Assembly: GCA_964016885.1 (NCBI GenBank)
Contig: OZ024746.1
Location: 54,436,001 to 54,500,000 of the forward strand
Source: Eledone cirrhosa
Taxonomy: Eukaryota
DNA length: 64,000 nt
Reading direction: 5' to 3'
Under the pieces are notes generated by a model. It saw only the letters and a program-made list of their open reading frames with translations, did not search any database and was not told where the DNA came from. The translations under genes were made by a program, and so were the position numbers. Positions 4,959 to 61,198 of this stretch are shown here, in pieces (positions within the stretch are counted from its first letter, which is position 1; each line of letters opens with the position of its first letter).

Positions 4959-5284
4959 AGAGAGGGAGATTTACATCTATGAAGTAGTGTTACATAACTT
5001 CCACTCCACACTTGTGTCACGTCCCAGTTGTGTACGGTCTCTATTCCTCCCAGCTACGTTTATAGAAATCATTTTTTGTATTGTTATGTCATGGCTGTCA
5101 CCTCGTATTTATTCTTCTACCGGTTTGCACCGCTTCCTATGAATTAAGAACCAAACACAGCACTTGACCTCAAAGTCTTTCTGTTCCCGTCTCTCTATGT
5201 TAATCTCCATTTTGCTACCCTTTTCTCAATCTCTCTCTCTCTCTCTCTCTCTGCGTATATATAATATATAATATATATATTTAT

Positions 5285-6362
<1,078 letters not shown>

Positions 6363-6490
6363 TAATAAAAACAATGTATAAAAACAAAGAACAAGTTACT
6401 TATATTAAACAATTCATCATTTAACGATCGTTTGGTAGATTTATCTACATATATATATATATATTTATTTATACACACACACTCACACAA

Positions 6491-6527
<37 letters not shown>

Positions 6528-6670
6528 CACCTATGTATCTCTATCCATCTCAGCCACATTTCTCACTATCTCTAAGCTTCTATTTCTGACTATTTCACTA
6601 AAAAGCTATCATATTCTCTATCGCTCTATATCTTTCACTCTTTGTACACTCTACCTAAGTTTCTATGAAT

Positions 6671-7274
6671 TTACCTCACATAATATCTCCCATAACATTT
6701 ACATTACTCTATATATACTATTGTATTTCCACAGTAAAGGCTTTACCTCACATAATGTTTCCCATAACATTTACATTACTCTATATATACTATTGTATTT
6801 TCACAGTAAAGTCTTTACGTCACATAATATTTCACATAACATTTACATTACTCTATATATACTATTGTATTTCCACAGTAAAGGCTTTACCTCACATAAT
6901 GTCTCCCATAACATTTACATTACTCTATATATACTATTGTATTTTCACAGTAAAGGCTTTACGTCACATAATATTTCACATAACATTTACATTACTCAAT
7001 ATATACTATTTTATTTCCACAGTAAAGGCTTTACCTCACATAATATCTCACATAAAATTTACATTACTCTATATATACTATTGTATTTCCACAGTAAATG
7101 CTTTACCTCACATAATATCTCACTTAACATTTACATTACTCTATATATACTATTGTATTTTCACAGTAAAGGCTTTACCTCACATAATATCTCACTTAAC
7201 ATTTACATTACTCTATACATACTATTGTATTTTCACAGTAAAGGCTTTACCTCACATAATATCTCACATAACAT
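6671..7274. repeat. 72-bp minisatellite array (~8.4 units)
   Basis: Unit ctcacataatatctcacataacatttacattactctatatatactattgtatttccacagtaaaggctttac; 24-aa periodicity in the overlapping ORFs. Confidence 0.95.
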
Positions 7275-7484
7275 CTCGTATACGAGAGACGTGTGTTGAC
7301 GTGTGTGAACAAGCTCGGCTACCGAGTCGGATTTACTTACTCAAAAGTGAGTTTTGATTAATTTTTTTATACTGTAATATACGTTAACCCCTTGCCTTGG
7401 TCGTCAAACTTTGAGTTTATTTATTTTCGCCCCTTTTTGGGTCGAATTTTCCAGTTAAAAATTTATTACGGCAAACTAATAGAA

Positions 7485-9222
7485 ATGGACGGAATTTTCA
7501 CATCTCATCCTAACGTGAAAGCCACGCCCCCTAAGAAAGGTGATACAGAGAAGCTAGAAGCACAAAGCTCTAAGTCTTCCCTCCTCACTTCTGAAAAAGA
7601 AACATGGAACACGGAATTAAAAGAAAAATTTGTAAAAATGGGTGAAAACCCAGAAAGTCACATAAACGCAGACAAAAACAACAACGACAATAACAGCAAT
7701 AGTCACAACACCAACCAAGGAAAAAATAACGATAACACCAAACAAAGCGAAACCACTACTGGTGCCTCCTTTGCACAGGCGGTCCGGAAAACACAAACCT
7801 GCAAGCAACTGGACATTACAACTCTGAGAGAAAAGATGAAGCAAGCGAAACAGTATGTAACTTTCAAAGAAGGAGGAGACTTCACAGTCACCTCCCCACA
7901 AGAAATCAAAAGGGACACGACGCTAAGAACGATATCTTTCAGAACAATTTCCAACATAACAAGGAAACTAGCTCAATTATCCCAAAAAGAGATTGAGCTG
8001 GTCCTAAAAAATGTGTGGAGTGATATATCGTTCATACAAAAAGGCCCACTCTATGGGAATATAACGGTCCTAATGAAGGATCAATTGACGGCCAGGAAAT
8101 ACTCTGTGGCGCCAATTGTTTCCAAGCTACATACATTTTTCCCCACATATTTAGGGAAAAGAACGCAGAAAATAAGGATCTCCGGAATCCGGCCAAATGC
8201 ATGCATTTCCTGGGTACTAACAGGATTTTTAGAAGACGAGGACGGAATCCTCTCAGTAGGAGAAGTCACCACAGACGTTTTCGGCGGTTCGAGCGTGGAG
8301 GTTCTGGTCCAAATGAGACCAGAACGAATAGCTAGAATACCACAGAGGGTGTCCGTCGATGGAGAAACATTTATATACATTTCCACCGAAGGTAGGAGGC
8401 CCATATGTTACTACTGTTCAAGCAGGGGTCATCTAAGGGCTGCTTGTCCTCAATTGACAAAAAAAAAGGCTCTTTTGCCTACACCCCACACACCACCACC
8501 GCCACCACCACCACCACCACCTCCACCACCACCACCACAACAACAACAAAAACAACACGGAAAAATAACACAAGACACGGCCCCACCCAAAACAACTTCA
8601 AAAACACACACAAATACAACAAAACCCCAAAATACACCACTACCCGACAGCACGGACGAGGACCCAGCTGAAACGGCACCTAGTGACGAAGAGGGGGAAC
8701 CCTTCCAACCTGTAAAATGAAAAAAAGAAAGCACCACTCGAACATAAACGAAACAAACACACAACCACCAACAAAAACAAAACAAACAGAACAAACAAAA
8801 TCCGCCCCACCCCAAAACATAACACATACAACAAAACGTAAGCACACACAAGAACAACAAACAAACACAACACAAATAAAACAGTATACATACATTAACA
8901 CAAATAACAAATAACTAGTAAAAACAATACACAAAGACCCTTAGGTGGAAACTGAAGGGCAATTCTTTGCAAGCGCGGCCAACAAACCGCATTTAAAAAT
9001 GATAAGACTCCCAATGGACACCTATGCAAAACTAAGAGAGAACTTTCCTGAGGACGTGGGGAAAACATGTACTCGACCCTATAACCGCGTCCTCACCAAA
9101 CACACCTCACCCACACCTCACCAAACACCCCCACTCCACCACAGAACAACACCCCACCAAACAACCCCTCCAATACGCCCATGGATATTGTGCAACCTGC
9201 TCCTCAGGTGCCGAACAGGTAG
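7485..9222 (+). pseudogene. Tx1 ORF1 (gag-like, CCHC zinc knuckle), broken in its 3' part
   Basis: ORF 7392..8720 (first ATG 7485) contains CYYCSSRGHLRAAC and a Pro/Gln/Thr-rich tail. It continues in fragments 8717..8914 and 8945 onward; copy 2 places the likely stop at tag 9220-9222. Confidence 0.8.
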
Positions 9223-9243
9223 GTCCTTCCTCTTTTAACCAAC

Positions 9244-12200
9244 ATGGCTGATATAAGAGTTGGGTGTCTGAATGTACGTGGCCTGGGACTGTCTTGGAAA
9301 CAAGGCAAACTTTTAAACGATCTCAGGTCGCATAGAATGGATATAATGGCTATTTGCGAGTCCAGGATCAGCAGCGAGCACCAACTGGCGCCCCTCTTCG
9401 ACGACTTTGAGATCTTCGCATCTTTCTGTCAACTGGGGGGTGGGGGTGGAGTTGTCGTTCTGCTGCGAAAACACCTGGGCCTCGCCATACAGAAGGTGCA
9501 CCTGGACCCGGAGGGTCGACTGGTGGTTTTAGACGTCGGCAGTAGTGAAAGTGGAGCCCTTAGACTAATAGCTGTGTACGCCCCTTTTTGGGCAGCGCGG
9601 CCGGAATACTTCCAACGTCTGGAAACTTTTCTGGGAACGTCCCGCTCCTTGCTTTTAGTGGGGGACTGGAATGGTATCCTGGATGCACGTTGGGACTATG
9701 TAGGGGCATGTGCCAATAGAGGGGGGTGTAAAAGCCTCAAAAGGTTAATCGGCCGATTTGACCTGGCCGATAGATATCGACTAGATTTTCCGACTGTACC
9801 ACTATGGACGTGGACCAATCGCAGTGGAACATCTAGGTCGTACCTAGATAGGGTCCTAGTTAGAGAGAAGGATAGGGACACATTTAGCTGTCCAAAAATG
9901 TTCATGGTTGACTATTCGGATCACAAGTTAGTGACCTGCATAGCCAACCTTGATAGAACCCATAGACAGGGACCCGGTTACTGGAAGCTGAACTTGTCCT
10001 TACCGAGAAGCAAAGCTTACAGTAAACGGATTAGTACGTTAGTTAAGCAGAGTTTGACAGGGGCAATTGTCAACAACAGGTGGTGGAGCTCTCTTAAGAG
10101 AGCAATTAGAATAGAATCGATAGGTTTTAGTCAGGAATTAGCAAGGGATAGGAACAAGACGGAAATGGAATTAGTAGATAGAGTAGAAGAGGCGATTAGG
10201 AGTGGCAATGTAGCCGGCGTGCTGGCATCAAGAATGGCCTTAGACCAGTTCTTTGAGGTGAAGCATGAAGGCTGCGTTGTCAGGAGTAAAATACGTGCTC
10301 TGGGTAATGAGGGAGCCAAAGCTGTGAGCTGGGCCCGAGTGACAGAGGCAAAAAGTGGGAACAAGTCCACGATTCAGTCTTTGAAGGACCAGGATGGGCG
10401 TGTGATCCTTGAACCTGGGCAGATGTGTGCGGCCTTTCAGCGGCACTTTGCACGACTGTTCGAGAGGGGCGGCGCGCCGGGTGAGACTATGGATTTCAAT
10501 CCATACCTCGACGGTTTGCCGCGGCTCTCGGACGCGGAGGCGAAGTCCTGCGAAAGGACGATTTCAGCTGCTGAGGTAGGGGCGGCGCTGAGCCAATGCG
10601 GCAAACGGAAATCCCTGGGTCTCGATGGTCTACCATACGAGCTATATGTAGCGATGTCGGACGTATTCTCCGATATCCTCGAAGCAGTCTACTGCAACTG
10701 GCAGCAGAACGGGAGAATTCCCAGTTCTGTGACCAAGGGCGTAGTTACGCTGGTGAGGAAGGATGAGAACAAGGGGGATGACATAAGTAACTTCAGGCCC
10801 ATAACTCTGCTAAATACAGAGTTAAAGATTTTGGCCAAGGTGTTAGCGAAGAGGTTGGCGCTTGTCGTTGGAAACCTGGTGGGAGAAGCGCAGACATGCG
10901 CAATCCCGTCCAGGTCCATTCACGACAATCTCCACCTTATGCGATACATCATAGAGAGGGTAGGGAATGAACCAGGCTTTGGTGGGGCCCTGATCAACTT
11001 GGATCAATCTAAAGCTTTCGATAGGGTTGACCATCGTTACCTGGATGCGGTGCTCGCGGCGGCAGGCTTCGGACCCGTTTTCAGGGGTTGGATTGCTGCG
11101 ATGCACAGCAGCAACGTCTGCTCAAGGGTCAAGGTGAACGGCCACCTGTCGGAGCCGTTCTAAATCATGCGATCCATCCGATAGGGATGCCCTCTCTCCT
11201 CCCTACTGTATGTGCTGGCTCTTGAGCCACTACTGCGGAAGTCGGAGCAGTTGCAGGGCATCCCTTTGGAACCGGGATTGCAGAAAGCGGCGTCGGCCTA
11301 CGCCGATGACGTGACAGTAATGGTGTCGAAAACCTCGCAAATCGGTGAGATCGGCACCTTACTGGCGGAATATGAAAGGTTTACAGGAGCCAAGCTGAAC
11401 CGGGACAAGTCCGTCGGTTTGCAACTCGGAACTTGGAGAGGCAAACCGATGCCCTCCAACGACGTCGTCGGACGCTGGACGGAGGGCCCGGTGAAGCTGC
11501 TTGGGGTCTGGTTCGGACCAGACCTCCAGGTGGAGAAAAACTGGAACGAGGTAACGGCCAGGGTGTTTGCACTCACCCAGAAGTGGGCCCAGTGCAAACT
11601 ATCCCTGAAAGGTCGAGCGGAGGTGGCGAATACTTATATAGCATCCGTCATCTACTACCGCTTGACCGTCGTGCCTTGCCCAGTGAAAAGACTCGCCAAA
11701 ATGGAGTGTGCGCTGTTCCAATTTCTTTGGAACAAGCGGACCCCTTTGGTAAGGAGATCCATCTGCTGTCAACACCCTTCGAAAGGAGGGCTGGGGATGC
11801 CCTGGCTACAGATGCGAAAACACGCATTAAGGCTACGGCACCTCCAGGTATTCCTCACCGGTCAACCGGTGTGGGCCCCGTTTGTGAGGCGAGCCTTTCC
11901 CAGACTCGTCTCGCTCACCGAGCTGCAATCCTGGGTCAAGCAAAGACCGAGAAAAGTGGGCGACTGGCACATTGAATGTGCCCAGGCGCTCACGGCCCTC
12001 TGGAAAGCGGACCCAGCAATCAGTGGAGACTCCACCTCGACATTCTATAGAGGGTTGGTACGCAGCAGGTGCGACGATGCTCTCGGAGAAGCTCTAGGCA
12101 TGGAGGAAGATGAACTGGCCAGTCTGTTCGGTAGGACGTTTGGCCCTGGACCGATGGACAACTTCCAAAAGTCCCTGGCTTGGCAGTGCTACCGAGGGGC

Positions 12201-12681
12201 TCTACCCGTTCGAGACAAGCTCCACAGGCATGGGAGCCTGGGTAGAGATCCTTTGAATAAGATCTGTCCGAGATGCGTGCATGATGACGAAACCGTTGCG
12301 CACGCATTCGTACACTGCCTAGGCATTGCTGACCTGTGGGGCTATGTGGAACGACTACTGTCGAGGGTGGGACCAATCTGGTTGACCACCGAGTCCATTG
12401 TCACGATCAAACCGCCTCCCCCTTTCAAAAACGAAGGAGAGGCGGTTTTTCTCTGTGTGATAGCCATGGCTAAATAAGTTGTATGGTGGACGAGGCTGAA
12501 AGGGCTGAGGTCAGACACCTTTCTCTCCGGCCAACAACTGGTCCCCTTTTTCAAATACCATTTTAAAAGAAGGATCAGAATGGAGAGAGAGGTGCTCTAC
12601 CCCAGCAAGTTTTATGAAAGGTGGGTGAAAGTAGGGAGAATGGCCAGCGTGAATGGGTCTTCTCTCTATATCAGCCTGTAG
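9244..12681 (+). pseudogene. Tx1 ORF2 (AP endonuclease-reverse transcriptase), three in-frame stops
   Basis: APE motifs LNVRGL, GDWN, YLDR, SDH; RT motifs FRPITLLN, LDQSKAFDRVDH, YADD; C-terminal CPRC..ETVAHAFVHC. Single frame with stops at 11161 (TAA), 11182 (TAG) and 12475 (TAA). Confidence 0.93.
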
Positions 12682-12918
12682 GTGAAAGAAGAGGAAAAAG
12701 AGGAGACGAGGGAAGCACCTACTCTTTGTGCTCCTGAGGAGAAGGGTTGCACATTTTTTCCGGGGTGTGTGCGACCCATGTTAATGCCCCCTCCCTATTG
12801 AGGACTTCGTTTGTTGTTGTTATTTCATTGTTATATTTTTGTACTCGTTAATTATATGTAAACTTCCCCCCTTGTATCTGTCCCTACCTTTTGTGCCCTA
12901 GTGGCAAATAAAGAAACC

Positions 12919-13343
12919 ACTCTATATATACTATTGTATTTTCACAGTAAAGGCTTTACCTCACATAATATCTCACATAACATTTACATTACTCTATATA
13001 TACTATTGTATTTTCACAGTAAAGGCTTTACCTCAAATAATATCTCACATAACATTTACATTACTTTATATATACTATCGTATTTTCACAGTAAAGGCTT
13101 TATCTCAAATAATATCTCCCATAACATTTACATTACTCTATATATATTATTGCATTTTCACAGTAAAGGTTTTACCTCACATAATATCTCACATAACATT
13201 TACATTACTTCATATATACTATTGTAATTCCACAGTAAAGGCTTTACCTCAAATAATATCTCCCATAACATTTACATTACTCTATATATACTATTGTATT
13301 TCCACAGTAAAGGCTTTACCTCACATAATATCTCACATAACAT
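12919..13343. repeat. 72-bp minisatellite array between the two LINEs (6 units minus 7 bp)
   Basis: Same unit; 425 bp between the copy 1 3' end and the copy 2 5' end. Confidence 0.95.
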
Positions 13344-13552
13344 CTCGTATACGAGAGACGTGTGTTGACGTGTGTGAACAAACTCGGCTACCGAGTCGGA
13401 TTTACTTACTCAAAAGTGAGTTTTGATTAATTTTTTATACTGTAATATACGTTAACCCCTTGCCTTGGTCGTCAAACTTTGAGTTTATTTATTTTCGCCC
13501 CTTTTTGGGTCGAATTTTCCAGTTAAAAATTTATTACGGCAAACTAATAGAA

Positions 13553-15277
13553 ATGGACGGAATTTTCACATCTCATCCTAACGTGAAAGCCACGCCCCCT
13601 AAGAAAGGTGATACAGAGAAGCTAGAAGCACAAAGCTCTAAGTCTTCCCTCCTCACTTCTGAAAAAGAAACATGGAACACGGAATTAAAAGAAAAATTTG
13701 TAAAAATGGGTGAAAACCCAGAAAGTCACATAAACGCAGACAAAAACAACAACGACAATAACAGCAATAGTCACAACACCAACCAAGGAAAAAATAACGA
13801 TAACACCGAACAAAGCGAACCCACTACATGTCCCTCCTTTGCACAGGCGGTCCGGAAAACACAGACCTGCAAGCAACTGGACATTACAACTCTGAGAGAA
13901 ATGATGAAGGAAGCAAAACAGTATGTAACTTTCAAAGAAGGAGGAGACTTCACAATCACCTCCCCACAAGAAATCAAAAGAGACACGACACTAAGAACGA
14001 TATCTTTCAGAACAATTTCCAACATAACAAGGAAACCAGCTCAATTATCCCAAAAAGAGATTGAACTGGTCCTAAAAAATGTGTGGAGTGATATATCGTT
14101 CATACAAAAAGGGCCACTCTATGGGAATATAACGGTGCTAATAGAGGATCAATTGACGGCCAGAAAATACTCTGTGGCGCCAATTGTTTCCAAGCTACAC
14201 ACATTTTTCCCCTCATATTTAGGTAAAAGAACGCAGAAAATAAGGGGCTCCGGATTCCGGCCAAATGCATGCATTTCCTGGGTACTAACAGGATTTTTAG
14301 AAGACGAGGATGGAATCCTCTCAGTAGGAGAAGTCACAACAGACGTTTTCGACGGTTTGAGCGTGAGGTTCTGGTCCAAATGAGACCAGAACGAATAGCT
14401 AGAATACCACAGAGGGTGTCCCTCGATGGAGAAACATTTATATACATTTCAGCCGAGGGTAGGAGACCCGTAGGTTACTACTGTTCAAGCAGGGGTCATC
14501 TAAGGGCTGCTTGTCCTCAATTGACAAAAAAAAAGCTTTTTTACCCCCCCCACACACACACACCACCACCACCACCACCACCACAACAACAACAACAACA
14601 ACAAAAACAACACGGAAAAATAACACAAGACACGGCCCCAACCAAAACAACTCCAAAAACACACACAAACACAACAAAACCCCAAAATACACCACTACCC
14701 GACAGCACGGACGAGGACCCAGCTGAAACGGCACCTAGTGACGAAGAGGGGGAACCCTTCCAACCTGTAAAAAGGAAAAAAAGAAAGCACCACTCGAACA
14801 TAGACGAAACAACCACACAACCACCAACAAAAACAAAACAAACAGAACAAACAAAATCCGCCCACCCCAAAACATAACACATACAACAAAACGTAAGCAC
14901 ACACAAGAACAACAAACAAACACAACACAAATAAAACAGTATACATACATTAACACAAATAACAAAGAACTAGTAAAAACAATACACAAAGACCCTTCGG
15001 TGGAACTGAAGGGCAATTCTTTGCAAGCGCGGCCAACAAACCGCATTTAAAAATGATAAGACTCCCAATGGACACCTATGCAACACTAAGAGAGAACTTT
15101 CCTGAGGACGTGGGGAAAACATGTACTCGACCCTATAACCGCGTCCTCTTGAAACGTTTCCCCACCCACACCTCACCAAATACCCCCACTCCGCCACAGA
15201 AAAACACCCCACCAAACAACCCCTCCAATACGCCCATGGATATTGTGCAACCCGCTCCTCAGGAGCCGAACAGGTAG
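13553..15277 (+). pseudogene. Tx1 ORF1 copy 2, frameshifted
   Basis: Fragments 13460..14383, 14269..14877 and 15053..15277 match copy 1 ORF1; first Cys of the knuckle mutated (GYYCSSRGHLRAAC). Confidence 0.8.
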
Positions 15278-15300
15278 GTCCTTCCTCTCTTTTAACCAAC

Positions 15301-18300
15301 ATGGCTGATATAAGAGTTGGGTGTCTGAATGTACGCGGCCTGGGACTGTCTTGGAAACAAGGCAAACTTTTAAACGATCTCAGGTCGCATAGAACGGATG
15401 TAATGGCTATTTGCGAGTCCAGGATCAGCAGCGAGCACCAACTGGCGCCCCTCTTCGACGACTTTGAGATCTTCGCATCTCTCTGTCAACCGGGGGGTGG
15501 GAGTGGAGTTGTCGTTCTGCTGCGAAAACACCTGGGCCCTGCCATACAGAAGGTGCACCTGGACCCGGAGGGTCGACTGGTGGTTTTAGACGTCGGCAGT
15601 AGTGAAAGTGGCGCCCTTAGACTAATAGCTGTGTACGCCCCTTTTTGGGCAGCACGGCCGGAATACTTCCAACGTCTGGAAACTTTTCTGGGAACGTCCC
15701 GCTCCTTGCTTTTAGTGGGGGACTGGAATGGTATCCTGGATGCACGTTGGGACTATGTAGGGGCATGTGCCAATAGAGGGGGGTGTAAAAGCCTCAAAAG
15801 GTTAATCGGCCGATTTGACCTGGCCGATAGATATCGACTAGATTTTTCGACTGTACCACTATGGACGTGGACCAATCGCAGCGGAACATCTAGGTCGTAC
15901 CTAGATAGGGTCCTAGTTAGAGAGAAGGATAGGGACACATTTAGCTGTCCAAAAATGTTCATGGTTGACTATTCGGATCACAAGTTAGTGACCTGCATAG
16001 CCAACCTTGATAGAACCCATAGACAGGGACCCGGTTACTGGAATCTGAACTTGTCCTTACCGACAAGCAAAGCTTACAGTAAACGGATTAGCACGTTAGT
16101 TAAGCAGAGTTTGACAGGGGCAATTGTCAACAACAGGTGGTGGAGCTCTCTTAAGAGAGCAATTAGAATAGAATCGATAGGTTTTAGTCAGGAATTAGCA
16201 AGGGATAGGAACAAGACGGAAATGGAATTAGTAGATAGAGTAGAAGAGGCGATTAGGAGTGACAATGTAGCCGGCGTGCTGGCATCAAGAATGGCTTTAG
16301 ACCAGTTCTTTGAGGTGAAGCATGAAGGCTGCGTTGTCAGAAGTAAAATACGTGCTCTGGGTAATGAGGGAGCCAAAGCTGTTAGATGGGCCCGAGTGAC
16401 AGAGGCAAAAAGTGGGAACAAGTCCACGATTTGGTCTTTGAAGGACCAGGATGGGCGTGTGATCCTTGAACCTGGGCAGATGTGTGCGGCCTTTCAGCGG
16501 CACTTTGCACGACTGTTCGAGAGGGGCGGCGCGCCGGGTGAGACTATGGATTTCAATCCATACCTCGACGGTTTGCCGCGCCTCTCGGACGCGGAGGAGA
16601 AGTCCTGCGAAAGGACGATTTCAGCTGCTGAGATGGGGGCGGCGCTGATCCAATGCGGCAAACGCAAATCCCCGGGTCTCGATGGTCTACCATACGAGCT
16701 ATATGTAGTGATGCCCGACTTGTTCTCCGATATCCTCGAAGTGGTCTACTGCAACTGGCAGCAGAAGGGAGAATTCCCAGTTCTGTGACCAAGGGCGTAG
16801 TTACGCTGGTGAGGAAGGATGAGAACAAGGGGGATGACATAAGTAACTTCAGGCCCATAACTCTGCTAAATACAGAGTTAAAGATTTTGGCCAAGGTGTT
16901 AGCGAAGAGGTTGGCGCTTGTCGTCGGAAACCTGGTGGGAGAAGCGCAGACATGCGCAATCCCGTCCAGGTCCATTCACGACAATCTCCACCTTATGCGA
17001 TACATCATAGAGAGGGTAGGGAATGAACCAGGCTTTGGTGGGGCCCTGATCAACTTGGATCAATCTAAAGCTTTCGATAGGGTTGACCATCGTTACCTGG
17101 ATGCGGTGCTCGCGGCGGCAGGCTTCGGACCCGTTTTCAAGGGTCAAGGTGAACGGCCACCTCTCGGAGCCGTTCCAAATCATGCGATCCATCCGACAGG
17201 GATGCCCTCTCTCCTCCCTTCTGTATGTGCTGGCTCTTGAGCCACTACTGCGGAAGTTGGAGCGGTTGCAGGGCATCCCTTTGGAACCGGGATTGCAGAA
17301 AGCGGCGTCGGCCTACGCCGATGACGTGACAGTAATGGTGTCGAAAACCTCGCAAATCGGTGAGATCGGCACCTTACTGGAGGAATATGAAAGGTTTACA
17401 GGAGCCAAGCTGAACCGGGACAAGTCCGTCGGTTTGCAACTCGGAACTTGGAGAGGCAAACCGATGCCCTCCAACGACGTCGTCGGACGCTGGACGGAGG
17501 GCCCGGTGAAGCTGCTTGGGGTCTGGTTCGGACCAGACCTCCAGGTGGAGAAAAACTGGAACGAGGTAACGGCCAGGGTGTTTGCACTCACCCAGAAGTG
17601 GGCCCAGTGCAAACTATCCCTGAAAGGTCGAGCGGAGGTGGCGAATAATTATATAGCATCCGTCATCTACTACCGCTTGACCGTCGTGCCTTGCCCAGTG
17701 AAAAGACTCGCCAAAATGGAGTGCGCGCTGTTCCAATTTCTTTGGAACAAGCGGACTCCTTTGGTGAGGAGATCCATCTGCTGTCAACACTCTTCGGAAG
17801 GAGGGCTGGGCATGCCGTGGCTACAGATGCGTAAACACGCATTAAGGCTACGGCACCTCCAGGTATTCCTCACCGGTCAACCGGTGTGGACCCCGTTTGT
17901 GAGGCGAGCCTTTCCCAGACTCGTCTCGCTCACCGAGCTGCAATCCTGGGTCAAGCAAAGACCGAGAAAAGTGGGCGACTGGCACATTGAATGTGCCCAG
18001 GCGCTCACGGCCCTCTGGAAAGCGGACCCGGCAATCAGTGGAGACTCCACCTCGACATTCTATAGAGGGTTGGTACGCAGCAGGTGTGACGATGCTCTCG
18101 GAGAAGCTCTAGGCATGGAGGAAGATGAACTGGCCAGTCTGTTTGGTAGGACGTTTGGCCCTGGACCGATGGACAACTTCCAAAAGTCCCTGGCTTGGCA
18201 GTGCTACCGAGGGGCTCTACCCGTTCGAGACAAGCTCCACAGGCATGGGAGCCTGTGTAGGGATCCTTTGAATAAGATCTGTCCGAGATGCGTGCATGAC

Positions 18301-18682
18301 GACGAAACCGTTGCGCACGCATTCGTACACTGCCCAGGCATTGCTGACCTGTGGGGCTATGTGGAACGACTACTGTCGAGGGTGGCACCAATCCGGTTGA
18401 ACACCACCGAGTCCATTGTCACGATCAAACCGCCTCCCCCTTTCAAAAACGAAGGAGAGGCGGTTTTTCTCTAAAGAAGTTGTATGGTGGACGAGGCTGA
18501 AAGGGCTGAGGTCAGACACCCTTCTCTCCGGTCAACAACTGGTCCCCTTTTTCAAATACCATTTTCAAAGAAGGATCAGAATGGAGAGAGAGGTGCTCTA
18601 CCCCAGCAAGTTTTATGAAATGTGGGTGAAAGTAGGGAGAATGGCCAGAGTAAATGGGTCTTCTCTCTATATCAGCCTGTAG
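15301..18682 (+). pseudogene. Tx1 ORF2 copy 2, frameshifted/deleted
   Basis: Fragments 15301..16788, 16653..17240, 17083..18474, 18416..18682. 1-bp loss near 16767, ~41-bp deletion near 17139, ~17-bp deletion near 18472. Confidence 0.92.
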
Positions 18683-18994
18683 GTGAAAGAAGAGGAAAAA
18701 GAGGAGACGAGGGAAGCACCTACTCTTTGTTCTCCTGGGGAGAAGGGTTGCACATTTTTTCCGGGGTGTGTGCGACCCATGTTAATGCCCCCTCCCTATT
18801 GAGGACTTCGTTTGTTGTTGTTATTTCATTGTTATATTTTTGTATTCGTTAATTATATGTAAACCTCCCCCCTTGTATCTGTCCCTACCTTTTGTGCCCT
18901 AGTGGCAAATAAAGAAATCACTCTATATATACTATCGTATTTTCTCAGTACAATTTCTCTCTTTCTCTGTTTCTCTCCAATTTGTATATATATG

Positions 18995-19063
<69 letters not shown>

Positions 19064-19064
19064 T

Positions 19065-19155
<91 letters not shown>

Positions 19156-19159
<4 letters not shown>

Positions 19160-19298
19160 CTATGGATCTCTATCCATCACAGCCACATTTCTCACTATCT
19201 CTAAGCTTCTGTTTCTGACTATTTCACTAAAAACCTATCATATTCTCTATCGCTCTATATCTTTCACTCTTTGTACACTCTACCTAAGTTTCTATGAA
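19156..19298 (+). repeat. Direct repeat of the sequence left of the LINE/minisatellite block (6527-6669)
   Basis: cctatg(t/g)atctctatccatc...tacctaagtttctatgaa is present on both sides; 18953-18985 also matches 6211-6245. Confidence 0.85.

Positions 19299-20144: not shown

Positions 20145-20149
<5 letters not shown>
19416..20149 (+). mobile_element. Penelope-like 3' fragment (GIY-YIG C-terminus, degenerate HHR, terminal motif)
   Basis: EHARQQH..RQIREASEI..PKLNRKNEW peptide; ctgacga-gttgca..tgcaac-gaaa near 19897-19924; ends atgaccctccccaagtataacaa-(TA)n. Confidence 0.7.
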
Positions 20150-20226
<77 letters not shown>

Positions 20227-20230
<4 letters not shown>

Positions 20231-21107
20231 AGAACAAAAGATGGTTAGAAGAGTTCCATGTATTTTATTATACGCATTTCAAAAACAAATATCATCATGC
20301 AATAATATTTGTGTTTTCATCAGATAAAACATTAAGACATGATATGAAGGTTAAAAAAACACTTGTGGATAGTTCAGTTTTAAATCAACATATGAGAAGT
20401 AGTTTTAGATTGATGTGTGATATTGGGAAAAATATTTTATTTAGGGGGGGGGGAGGAAAAAGAGGAGGAGATGAGAGTAAAAAGTGGAGAGGGAGGAGTA
20501 TAATGAGGAAGGATGAGATAGGAGGAGAGATGGGTGATAGAGAGAGAGAGATAGCTTTTATAACTGAGAAAGATATATTGTTTTACAGGTTGAAAACCGT
20601 TGGAAGGTAATGTATAAATTAAAAGAATTTGAAAATTAACGAAGAGAAAAATAATGTAAAGTTAAGGTTTGTATATTTTCAACCTCTCTCTGTAAAACAA
20701 TATATCTTTCTCAGTTTTAAAAGCTATCTCTCTCTCTCTATCACCCATCTCTCCTCCTATCTCATCCTTCCTCATTATACTCCTCCTTCTCCACTTTTTA
20801 CTCTCATCTCCTCCTCTTTTTCATCCCCCCCCCCCTCTAAATAAAATATTTTTCCCAATATCACACATCAATCTAAAACTACTTCTCATATGTTGATTTA
20901 AAACTGAACTATCCACAAGTGTTTCTTTAACCTTCATATCATGTCTTCATGTTTTATCTGATGAAAACACAAATATTATTGCATGATGGTATTTGTTTTT
21001 GAAATGCGCATAATAAAATACATGGAACTCTTCTAACCATCTTTTGTCCTTATATATATTATGTAGAGTGCTTATTATCCGATATCTACAATAAAACTCA
21101 CCTCCTA

Positions 21108-21110
<3 letters not shown>
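20227..21110. mobile_element. Fold-back PLE-type element, arms ~20227-20596 and ~20677-21054, extra tail to 21110
   Basis: ~370-bp inverted arms, outward-facing HHRs, (TA)n on both sides. Confidence 0.8.
20952..21018 (+). ncRNA. Type I hammerhead ribozyme (mirror copy on - strand at 20263-20329)
   Basis: ttttat-CTGATGA-[long stem II]-GAAA-tgcgca-TA-ataaaa. Confidence 0.8.
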
Positions 21111-21152
<42 letters not shown>

Positions 21153-52767: not shown

Positions 52768-53315
52768 ATATATATATATATATCCGTGTGTGTGTATATG
52801 TGAATATGTGTGTATATATCTCTGTGTGTATATGTGAATATGTGTGTATATATCTGTGTGTGAATATGTGAATATGCGTGTATATATCTGTGTGTGTATG
52901 TGAATATGTGCGTATATGTGAATATGTGTTTATATATCCGTGTGTATTTGTGTGCATGTGAATATGTGTGTATATATGTGTGTGTGTACGTGAATATATG
53001 TGTATATATGTGTGTATGTGTGAATATGTGTGTATATATCTGTGTATGTATATGTGAATATGTGTGTGTGTATATATATATATCCGCGTGTGTGTATATG
53101 TGAATATGTGTCTATATGTGAATATGTGTGTATGTGTGAATATGTGTTTATATTGAATATGTTTATATATCCGTGTGTATGTGTGTGCATGTGAATATGT
53201 GTGTATATATCTGTGTGTATATGTGAATATGTGAATATGTGTGTATATGTGAATATATGTGTACATATCTATGTGTATGTGTATCCATACGAACTGAGTA
53301 TGTATTAATATTAAT

Positions 53316-53684
53316 TATTTCTACTTTAGGCACAAGGCCAGCAATTACCCAGTACATTACTGGTACTTTATTGTATCGACCCCGTAAGGATGAAAGGCAA
53401 AGTTAACCTCGGCGGGATTTGAACTCAGACTATAAAGGGCCGTAACTCTATGCTGCAAAGCATGGCCTCCGACCCTCTATGTATTAATATTAATTGTTTC
53501 TACTTATGGCACAAGGCCAGCAATTAATCCAGTGCATTACTGGTACTTTATTTTATCGACCCCGTAAGGATGAGAGGCAAAGTTAACCTAGGCGGGATTT
53601 GAACTCATAATTGCAAGGGCCGTAACTCTATGCATCAAAGCATGGTGTCCAACCCCCTACCGATACTGCCAATTCACCGCCCTC
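53316..53684 (-). mobile_element. Tandem pair of SINE A copies with a triplicated 15-bp target
   Basis: tgtattaatattaat at 53301, 53480 and 53685. Confidence 0.85.
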
Positions 53685-56260: not shown

Positions 56261-57156
56261 AGGCACTGAAGATTAGGTTCCAATTTTGACCCCTCTTATA
56301 ATCAGAAGTTATGGTAAATATTTGGCATTGAAAACTTATGTAGCGTTTAAGATAAAACTTTATCAAACAATAGTTCTTGATTCTTACTGCAGTTACGTCC
56401 TGAAAATGATCGCAGTATTCTAATAATTTAATATACAAGATTATGGGAACAGGACTCTGAAGAGAATCTTTCATACCCGAAGAAATTTCGAGTTAATATT
56501 GTAACCAATATTTTCTTCAAAATGGACATCTGTCAGGTGGCATATATACCACACAGTAATAAATGGACTGTTGGCAAGCCAACGGGGTTGCTAGAAATAA
56601 CAGTTCGTTTTAGCCTTTTTTACGCCACATTGTAGACAGAGTCTAACAAATTATTTGTTACCACTCACACAGTAAAGACTCACGAATGACCATGGGATTT
56701 ACACCTTGAAACTTTCCCTCCCAAGCACAATTCCGGGCAAGGTTGTTTATGGAAAACTAGCAGTCGCCCAAGCATACCATCTTCCCCTCTCCACGCCACC
56801 GATGATGTGCAAGTGAAAGGTTATGGCCGATACAGCTTGACTCCAGAGACGTTGCAACTCATTTCTAGATTGGAGTAAATTGGAGCAACGTGAAATAAAG
56901 GGTCTTGCTCAAGAAAACAAAGCATCACCCGGTCCTAGAATCGAACTCACAAACTCCCGATTGCAAGCTCATTGCGCTAACCACTGAGCCATGCGCCTTC
57001 ACACCACTGCCACTCCTACAAAGTAGAGAAAAAATGCCTAACACGAATTGCTAGAAACACACACGTACACACACACAGACATACACATACATACACAGAC
57101 ACACGCAGACACAGAAACACACACTCACACACATATATGTAACATATATATATATA

Positions 57157-61198
<4,042 letters not shown>

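What the first reader, a model, noticed from the sequence alone, without database searches (positions are those of the whole stretch)
6671..18950. Tx1 LINE pair locked in register with a 72-bp minisatellite: new target specificity or self-targeting array
Seen: both copies start after ...cacataacat| and both end with aataaagaaa(c/t)c|actctatatatac, the same positions in the unit, with 7 nt (ttacatt) missing and no poly(A) or TSD. The spacer is exactly 6x72-7 bp. A 31-bp partial unit follows copy 2. Known: several Tx1-clade families are sequence-specific (U2 snRNA, tRNA spacers, microsatellites, other transposons). Inference: the element targets this minisatellite, or the 72-mers are its own 5' monomer array into which new copies insert; a tandem duplication is the simpler alternative.
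Basis: partly seen in the sequence, partly recalled or inferred. Interest (0 to 1): 0.75.

Follow-up and report, generated by a model that had tools for sequence, protein, structure and literature searches.

The report
LINE targeting a MITE's tandem junctions
Two separately inserted copies of a young copy-and-paste jumping gene sit at the same base of a 72-letter repeat that grew inside a small DNA transposon, as do nearly all of its roughly 300 full-length copies, and its RNA likely carries a short piece of that repeat that seals the insertion onto the previous repeat unit, a blend of habits already known from frog and fruit-fly elements.

Summary
The 72-mer is the internal repeat of a TTAA-flanked piggyBac-type MITE (at least 12,200 copies, mostly single-unit), not a free minisatellite or the LINE's monomer array. 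The window's two copies are 2.57% apart and not sisters, so this pair is not a tandem duplication.

There are three junction classes:
- Full-length copies in arrays lose exactly 7 bp.
- 6 of 7 truncated copies keep those bases and have TSDs of 2-75 bp.
- One full-length copy in a single-unit MITE has a 51-bp TSD.

The last ~23 nt upstream of the LINE ignore local array variants (0 of 14), so they likely travel on the RNA and anneal to the preceding unit. That would explain why single-unit MITEs are nearly unused. Sister families sit in (TATC)n.

Precedents are Xenopus Tx1L/Tx1D for the target and melanogaster-group R1A for the junctions. Tx1 membership was not tested against named references. 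The scan found this family before in at least seven other windows.

The parts
6213..6669 (+). Left copy (X) of a local direct duplication flanking the whole block; microsatellite-rich, with a unique 140-bp end
   Evidence: the 140-bp part occurs exactly twice in the genome, 97% identical
6670..7274 (+). 72-bp array, 8.4 units, starting at unit position 37; internal repeat of a TTAA MITE whose left end is absent here
7252..7274 (+). Likely element-borne 5' tip of LINE copy 1 (unit positions 43-65)
   Evidence: inferred
7275..12918 (+). LINE copy 1, full length, L1-group, CC-type 3' junction, 1.3% from its nearest sampled copy; decayed
7485..8720 (+). ORF1 of copy 1, ending early after a frameshift (580 aa in an intact copy); one CCHC knuckle below the Pfam cut-off
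9244..12681 (+). ORF2 of copy 1 (APE endonuclease, RT, zf-RVT) with three in-frame stops; 1145 aa in an intact copy
12919..13343 (+). Spacer array, 6x72-7 bp; its last ~23 nt (13321-13343) are the likely tip of copy 2
13344..18919 (+). LINE copy 2, full length, TC-type 3' junction, 2.0% from its nearest sampled copy; frameshifts and private 41- and 17-bp deletions
18920..18950 (+). Unit positions 1-31; the MITE right end is absent
18954..19298 (+). Right copy (X') of the flanking direct duplication

Best explanation
These are two independent insertions of a young, sequence-specific L1-group (likely Tx1-clade) LINE at one fixed base of the 72-bp internal tandem repeat of a piggyBac-type MITE, and full-length copies are likely sealed by a short piece of that repeat carried at the 5' end of their RNA. 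Shown: the fixed site, the MITE host, independent entry and three junction classes. Inferred steps: (1) The APE endonuclease nicks the bottom strand at CATT/ACTCTAT; the RNA's 3' end likely runs into the target and pairs with the primer. (2) The top strand is cut downstream by default, which gives TSDs in truncated copies. (3) A full-length cDNA ends in unit positions ~43-65 and anneals to the same stretch of the preceding unit; the flap is trimmed and exactly 7 bp are lost. (4) Efficient full-length insertion therefore needs two head-to-tail units, so the real target is the array junction rather than the MITE. (5) The family likely derives from (TATC)n-targeting sisters and took its tip from an array. 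Tandem pairs like this one arise because one array offers many sites.
For: Fixed site: (30 of 30 ORF1-picked loci; tip perfect in 29). Host: a 14-bp TIR with TTAA at both ends and a 136-bp right part; of 59 copies, 31 reach the left TIR and 34 the right part. Independent entry: hosts 16.7% apart vs LINEs 1.5% apart across 29 hosts; the window pair are not sisters. Element-borne tip: positions 43-65 of the 5'-adjacent unit differ by 0.4% between loci vs 3.8-5.1% for other units, and share local array variants in 0 of 14 cases vs 17 of 29 (Fisher p=1.5e-4, or 0.002 without one locus's four sites). No long TSD as a rule: the two flanking units differ in 68 of 81 classifiable copies, 4 are TSD-like, 9 uninformative, 5 skipped. 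Truncated copies: TSDs of 2, 6, 9, 10, 13 and ~75 bp in 6 of 7. Single-unit hosts: 2 of 16 copies whose right flank is the MITE's last unit, one with a 51-bp TSD sharing five private variants, although single-unit MITEs are 24 of 29 and 18 of 30 sampled. The 3' dinucleotide tracks age (TT 2.05%, TC 1.66%, CC 0.7% median distance from a young copy), so it is inherited. Sisters: 15 of 30 loci with the shared 3' 15-mer are not this family and are followed by TCTA/TC-type microsatellite. Precedent: PMC2718515 section 11.
Against: No RNA or biochemical evidence was obtained, so the tip on the transcript and the nick positions are inferred. The invariant tip could instead reflect strict protein recognition of upstream DNA. 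Variant sites are few and not independent. Single-unit MITEs are more diverged and rarer at chromosome ends, which could explain part of their avoidance. The pattern is exact and misses mutated hosts. One truncated copy (L266) has the tip and the 7-bp loss. Copies were picked by likeness to copy 1, which biases towards young CC copies. The Tx1 clade was not tested against named references.
Confidence: 0.75

Rival explanations
1. Targeting is real, but the 7-bp loss comes purely from staggered cleavage, and the invariant upstream 23 nt reflect extended protein recognition rather than sequence carried on the RNA.
For: It also predicts 0 of 14 shared variants and the avoidance of first sites.
Against: Truncated copies keep the 7 bp and have TSDs (6 of 7). 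One truncated copy sits at the first site of a single-unit MITE that has no upstream unit (L269). The single-unit full-length copy L265 has a tip ending in CAT that its host lacks.
Confidence: 0.15
2. The 72-mers are the LINE's own 5' monomer array, copied with it and then self-targeted.
For: Every full-length copy examined has at least one unit upstream, and 26 of the first 100 listed copies are in stacks.
Against: Arrays are bounded by MITE ends on both sides and exist without a LINE. They number about 100 junctions per LINE. Positions 1-30 of the 5'-adjacent unit follow local variants (8 of 9 where both neighbours agree, from five loci).
Confidence: 0.04
3. One insertion was spread by local tandem duplication or by transposition of a MITE+LINE composite.
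For: Local duplications exist: near-identical copies with identical spacers in 2 of 8 stacks. One host pair (L106/L107) is near-identical with a shared outer flank.
Against: The window pair are 2.57% apart with different 3' dinucleotides and private deletions. LINEs 0.2-0.4% apart sit in hosts 9-21% apart. Copies 0.04% apart lie on different contigs.
Confidence: 0.03

Closest known systems
Xenopus laevis Tx1L in Tx1D (non-autonomous piggyBac family)
   Same: An APE-type LINE that inserts specifically into a non-autonomous piggyBac-type element (PMC4494074, PMC1950540 and PMC6719617, passages read). Tx1D's internal tandem repeats are recalled, not read.
   Different: Tx1L makes a fixed TSD of about 23 bp (recalled; the primary papers were not held). 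Here full-length copies lose 7 bp, single-unit hosts are almost unused, and there is no sign of composite transposition.
Melanogaster-group R1A elements (Stage and Eickbush 2009, PMC2718515, sections 8 and 11 read)
   Same: Full-length insertions have a precise small target deletion (9 bp there, 7 bp here). Upstream target sequence is inferred on the RNA 5' end (7-28 bp there, ~23-30 here), all truncated copies have TSDs, and 3' read-through is inferred.
   Different: A different clade and target (28S rDNA, one site per unit). Melanogaster-type R1A forms few tandems, whereas here the tandem target lets copies stack. The resemblance is convergent.
Crocodilian SINEU-3 and Tx1 families in Mariner-N4_AMi (PMC4494074, section 14 read)
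   Same: Independent insertion into an older non-autonomous DNA transposon; tandem copies arise by sequential insertion.
   Different: A Mariner host with no repeat array reported in that section; a 16-bp TSD separates tandem copies.
Kibi and Koshi (Tx1 clade; (TC)n and (TTC)n targets; PMC4494074 passage)
   Same: The sister families in this genome use a (TATC)n-type microsatellite in the same way.
   Different: This family has left the microsatellite for a MITE-derived repeat that shares a TCTAT core.

Membership tests
Tx1 clade (L1 group) non-LTR retrotransposon | ORF2 with APE endonuclease, RT and C-terminal zinc motif | tested here: met
   Pfam Exo_endo_phos, RVT_1, zf-RVT; intact 1145 aa in L090
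Tx1 clade (L1 group) non-LTR retrotransposon | Closer to L1 than to R2 | tested here: met
   Human L1 ORF2p E=3.5e-53 over residues 4-857; R2 at best 2e-23, RT only
Tx1 clade (L1 group) non-LTR retrotransposon | ORF1 with CCHC knuckle | tested here: inconclusive
   zf-CCHC 17.4 bits, under the 20.8 cut-off
Tx1 clade (L1 group) non-LTR retrotransposon | RT groups with named Tx1 families in a tree | not testable with these tools
   No named Tx1 protein was returned
Tx1L/Tx1D-type system | Fixed insertion site inside a non-autonomous TTAA/TIR element | tested here: met
Tx1L/Tx1D-type system | Fixed-length TSD (recalled for Tx1L) | tested here: not met
   7-bp loss in full-length copies; TSDs of 2-75 bp in truncated ones
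Tx1L/Tx1D-type system | Composite moving as a unit (Tx1C idea, recalled) | tested here: not met
   Hosts 16.7% vs LINEs 1.5% apart
piggyBac-type MITE (host) | TTAA on both sides, TIR starting CCC, short and non-coding | tested here: met
   14-bp TIR, about 200 bp in single-unit form; empty orthologous sites were not compared
piggyBac-type MITE (host) | Autonomous partner with the same ends | not tested
   no search made
Melanogaster-type R1A mode of 5' joining | Precise small deletion in full-length copies, TSD in truncated copies | tested here: met
Melanogaster-type R1A mode of 5' joining | Upstream target sequence present on the transcript | tested here: inconclusive
   indirect support only; no RNA run could show it

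The most novel reading that the evidence does not exclude
The LINE is a parasite of a tandem-repeat junction rather than of a host element: it reads the start of one unit with its endonuclease and seals onto the end of the previous unit with its RNA. Its own nicks and unit-length duplications (51 and ~75 bp seen) also drive the birth and growth of the MITE arrays, so it manufactures its own niche.
Probability: 0.15. Interest if true: 0.72.

Novelty: new variant of a known kind. Interest (0 to 1): 0.42.

Why it matters
It is a young family with intact copies (both frames open in at least 9 of 59 sampled) and thousands of close relatives that use a different target. That makes a natural test of how an APE endonuclease changes specificity. 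Its three junction classes give within-family evidence for homology-primed second-strand synthesis, inferred before mainly for rDNA-targeting R1, and bear on how site-specific LINEs achieve mostly full-length, precise insertion. It is not a new kind of system, and the scan has already reported this family several times.

Tried and rejected
- 65-bp TSD as the general explanation of the 7-bp loss: rejected, because the flanking units differ in 68 of 81 copies; long TSDs occur only as exceptions.
- Structured RNA gene as the target: the Rfam scan of 5000-7500 gave only microsatellite-driven hits below gathering scores and none in the array or the LINE 5' end.
- A fold of the 5' 228 nt showed short hairpins and no control was run, so it is not used.
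- Naming the clade: the homologue search, cluster look-up and atlas gave no Tx1-named protein.
- Expression: no RNA holder was listed; the contigs laid cannot show a start or expression, so they are not used as evidence.
- Comparing the endonuclease with sister L255 failed because that copy is frameshifted.
- The ORF1 search meant to reach sister families returned only this family.
- Self-attraction as the cause of pairs: about 1% site occupancy over arrays of ~15 units gives roughly 10-15% by my rough estimate, against 26 of 100 observed, about 20 after collapsing duplications; with the chromosome-end bias this is not a clear excess.
- Literature searches found no description of this family. 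PMC13282606 (passages only) lists active L1-Tx1 and piggyBac families in Octopus vulgaris, and 'target site' does not occur in its main text. Its supplements, Repbase and subscription papers were not seen and may describe it.

Full report
OBSERVATION. The sequence matches the finding. Copy 1 spans 7275-12918 and copy 2 spans 13344-18919; they are 97.5% identical, each with private indels. Array 1 has 8.4 units and starts at unit position 37, the spacer is 425 bp, and 31 bp of a unit follow copy 2. Both copies are decayed. ORF2 carries APE endonuclease, RT and zf-RVT domains and is closest to L1 among solved structures. An intact genomic copy has ORF1 of 580 aa and ORF2 of 1145 aa. The genome is 3.0 Gb; earlier AI notes call it octopus-like, which I did not test.

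THE SITE IS FIXED GENOME-WIDE. The 30 fetched best matches to each end all had the same junction; 28 of the 30 3' flanks continue as 72-mer. Exact patterns give 310 5' ends, 300 of them with the 10-nt repeat flank, and 350 canonical 3' junctions, with reversed controls at 0. Thirty loci picked through ORF1, blind to flank, all had the unit upstream. Most copies are full length: 19 of 20 picked by their 3' end aligned from base 1, and the twentieth has its 5' end with an internal deletion.

THE REPEAT BELONGS TO A MITE. Arrays begin with TTAA plus a 14-bp TIR and end in a 136-bp right part, the inverted TIR and TTAA. Of 59 copies with both ends, the left flank reached the TIR in 31, another LINE in 9, other sequence in 16 and the edge of the fetch in 3. 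The right flank reached the MITE end in 34, a LINE in 9, other sequence in 14 and the edge in 2. There are at least 12,200 left ends and 34,895 array junctions. Most MITEs are single-unit and about 200 bp: 24 of 29 picked by the right end (3 arrays, 2 partial) and 18 of 30 at one chromosome tip (11 arrays, 1 with a LINE after one short unit). Hosts are 16.7% apart while their LINEs are 1.5% apart (29 hosts), so the LINE entered each host separately. In the sampled single-unit MITEs the unit almost always ends in TAT, and the CAT at the LINE's tip occurs only at array junctions. The tip therefore most likely came from an array (inference).

THE PAIR. The window copies are 2.57% apart and each ranks the other 54th and 50th of 58. 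Copy 2 (TC junction, 2.0% from its nearest relative) is likely older than copy 1 (CC, 1.3%). Stacks are common: 26 of the first 100 listed 5' ends. Of 8 stacks compared, 5 including this one consist of copies whose nearest relatives lie elsewhere, 1 is ambiguous, and 2 mix independent copies with local duplicates. With about 1% of junctions occupied, a pair in one array needs no special mechanism.

JUNCTION MECHANISM. In a tandem array a 7-bp loss and a 65-bp TSD look alike, so I used array variants. The two units flanking a LINE differ in 68 of 81 classifiable copies; 4 are TSD-like, 9 uninformative and 5 were skipped because a flank was not a clean unit. The unit just upstream is a mosaic. 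Positions 1-30 follow the local array (8 of 9 sites where both neighbours agree), while positions 43-65 never do (0 of 14, against 17 of 29 for neighbouring units) and are 0.4% apart between loci against 3.8-5.1%. I then fetched 20 hand-picked 3' junctions that lacked an exact 5' partner: 14 had a 5' end, 5 were truncated and 1 was a sister family. I also examined all 16 copies whose right flank is the MITE's last unit. Of 7 truncated copies in all, 6 keep the 7 bp and have TSDs of 2, 6, 9, 10, 13 and about 75 bp; one has the tip and the 7-bp loss. Only 2 of the 16 are in single-unit hosts. One is a 40-nt truncated copy. The other is a full-length copy whose flanks share 51 bp and five private variants, followed by the tip, as expected if the cDNA had to pair with the only homologous stretch, downstream of the nick. 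At the 3' end the target's TT is replaced by TC or CC in a way that tracks copy age, and positions 1-8 of the right flank were invariant in 51 of 51 units. Both fit an RNA that runs into the target and pairs with the primer. This pattern parallels melanogaster-group R1A (PMC2718515, section 11).

ORIGIN. The terminal 15-mer occurs 4,800 times. In 30 consecutive loci on one contig, 15 were this family with the MITE flank and 15 were other copies, 69-87% identical where they aligned (13 of 15), followed by TCTA/TC-type microsatellite; several truncated ones had it on both sides. A switch from (TATC)n to the MITE's ACTCTATAT core is likely. The direction was not tested with a rooted tree.

LIMITS. 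There is no RNA or enzyme evidence. Variant sites are few and not independent, and sampling favoured young copies. Avoidance of single-unit hosts is partly confounded by their greater divergence and by regional bias. The Tx1 clade is assumed from architecture and behaviour, not from a tree.

THIS WINDOW'S ODDITY. Both MITE ends are missing. The block runs from unit position 37 round to position 31 and is flanked by a direct duplication of local sequence present only here. That suggests the array arrived as a block, from a circle or by template switching, rather than by MITE transposition (inference, untested).

VERDICT. The feature is real and explained: a new variant that combines a Tx1L/Tx1D-type target with R1A-type 5' sealing, which confines it largely to tandem junctions. 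The scan has reported this family in at least seven other windows.

Noticed in passing
window 6213-6669 and 18954-19298: A direct duplication of local sequence, found only twice in the genome, flanks the whole array-LINE block. The block starts at unit position 37, ends at position 31 and lacks both MITE ends, like a nearly circularly permuted insert.
   Followed up: partly
G000 C1-C4 (list): LINE copies crowd chromosome ends: 50 of 53 lie within 32 Mb of an end (50 of 50 on C1-C3, 0 of 3 on C4; threshold chosen after the fact, about 16% expected), while MITE left ends are sparser at the C1 tip.
   Followed up: partly
L219, L220, L210, L043: MITE arrays come in several periods (60, 70, 72, 82 and about 41-43 bp), all sharing the same TIR-adjacent junction, which suggests repeated independent births at one spot.
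   Followed up: no
G000 C1:4.22-4.26 Mb and C10:40.72-40.76 Mb: Stacks of 6 and 5 full-length LINEs, several separated by exactly one 65-bp unit; part local duplication, part independent insertion.
   Followed up: yes
L072: A copy in which ORF1 and ORF2 read as one 1781-codon open frame, probably through a frameshift.
   Followed up: no
L270, L271, L043: Arrays that invert on themselves, with LINE copies in opposite orientation on the two arms.
   Followed up: no
window 5250-6360: Three degenerate ~350-bp local tandem units built around (TA)n/(CA)n tracts just upstream of the block.
   Followed up: no
window 20149-21141: A near-palindrome of about 1 kb, 86% arm identity.
   Followed up: no
window 57156-58394 and 53299-53659: Tandem duplications with 449-bp and 180-bp periods.
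   Followed up: no
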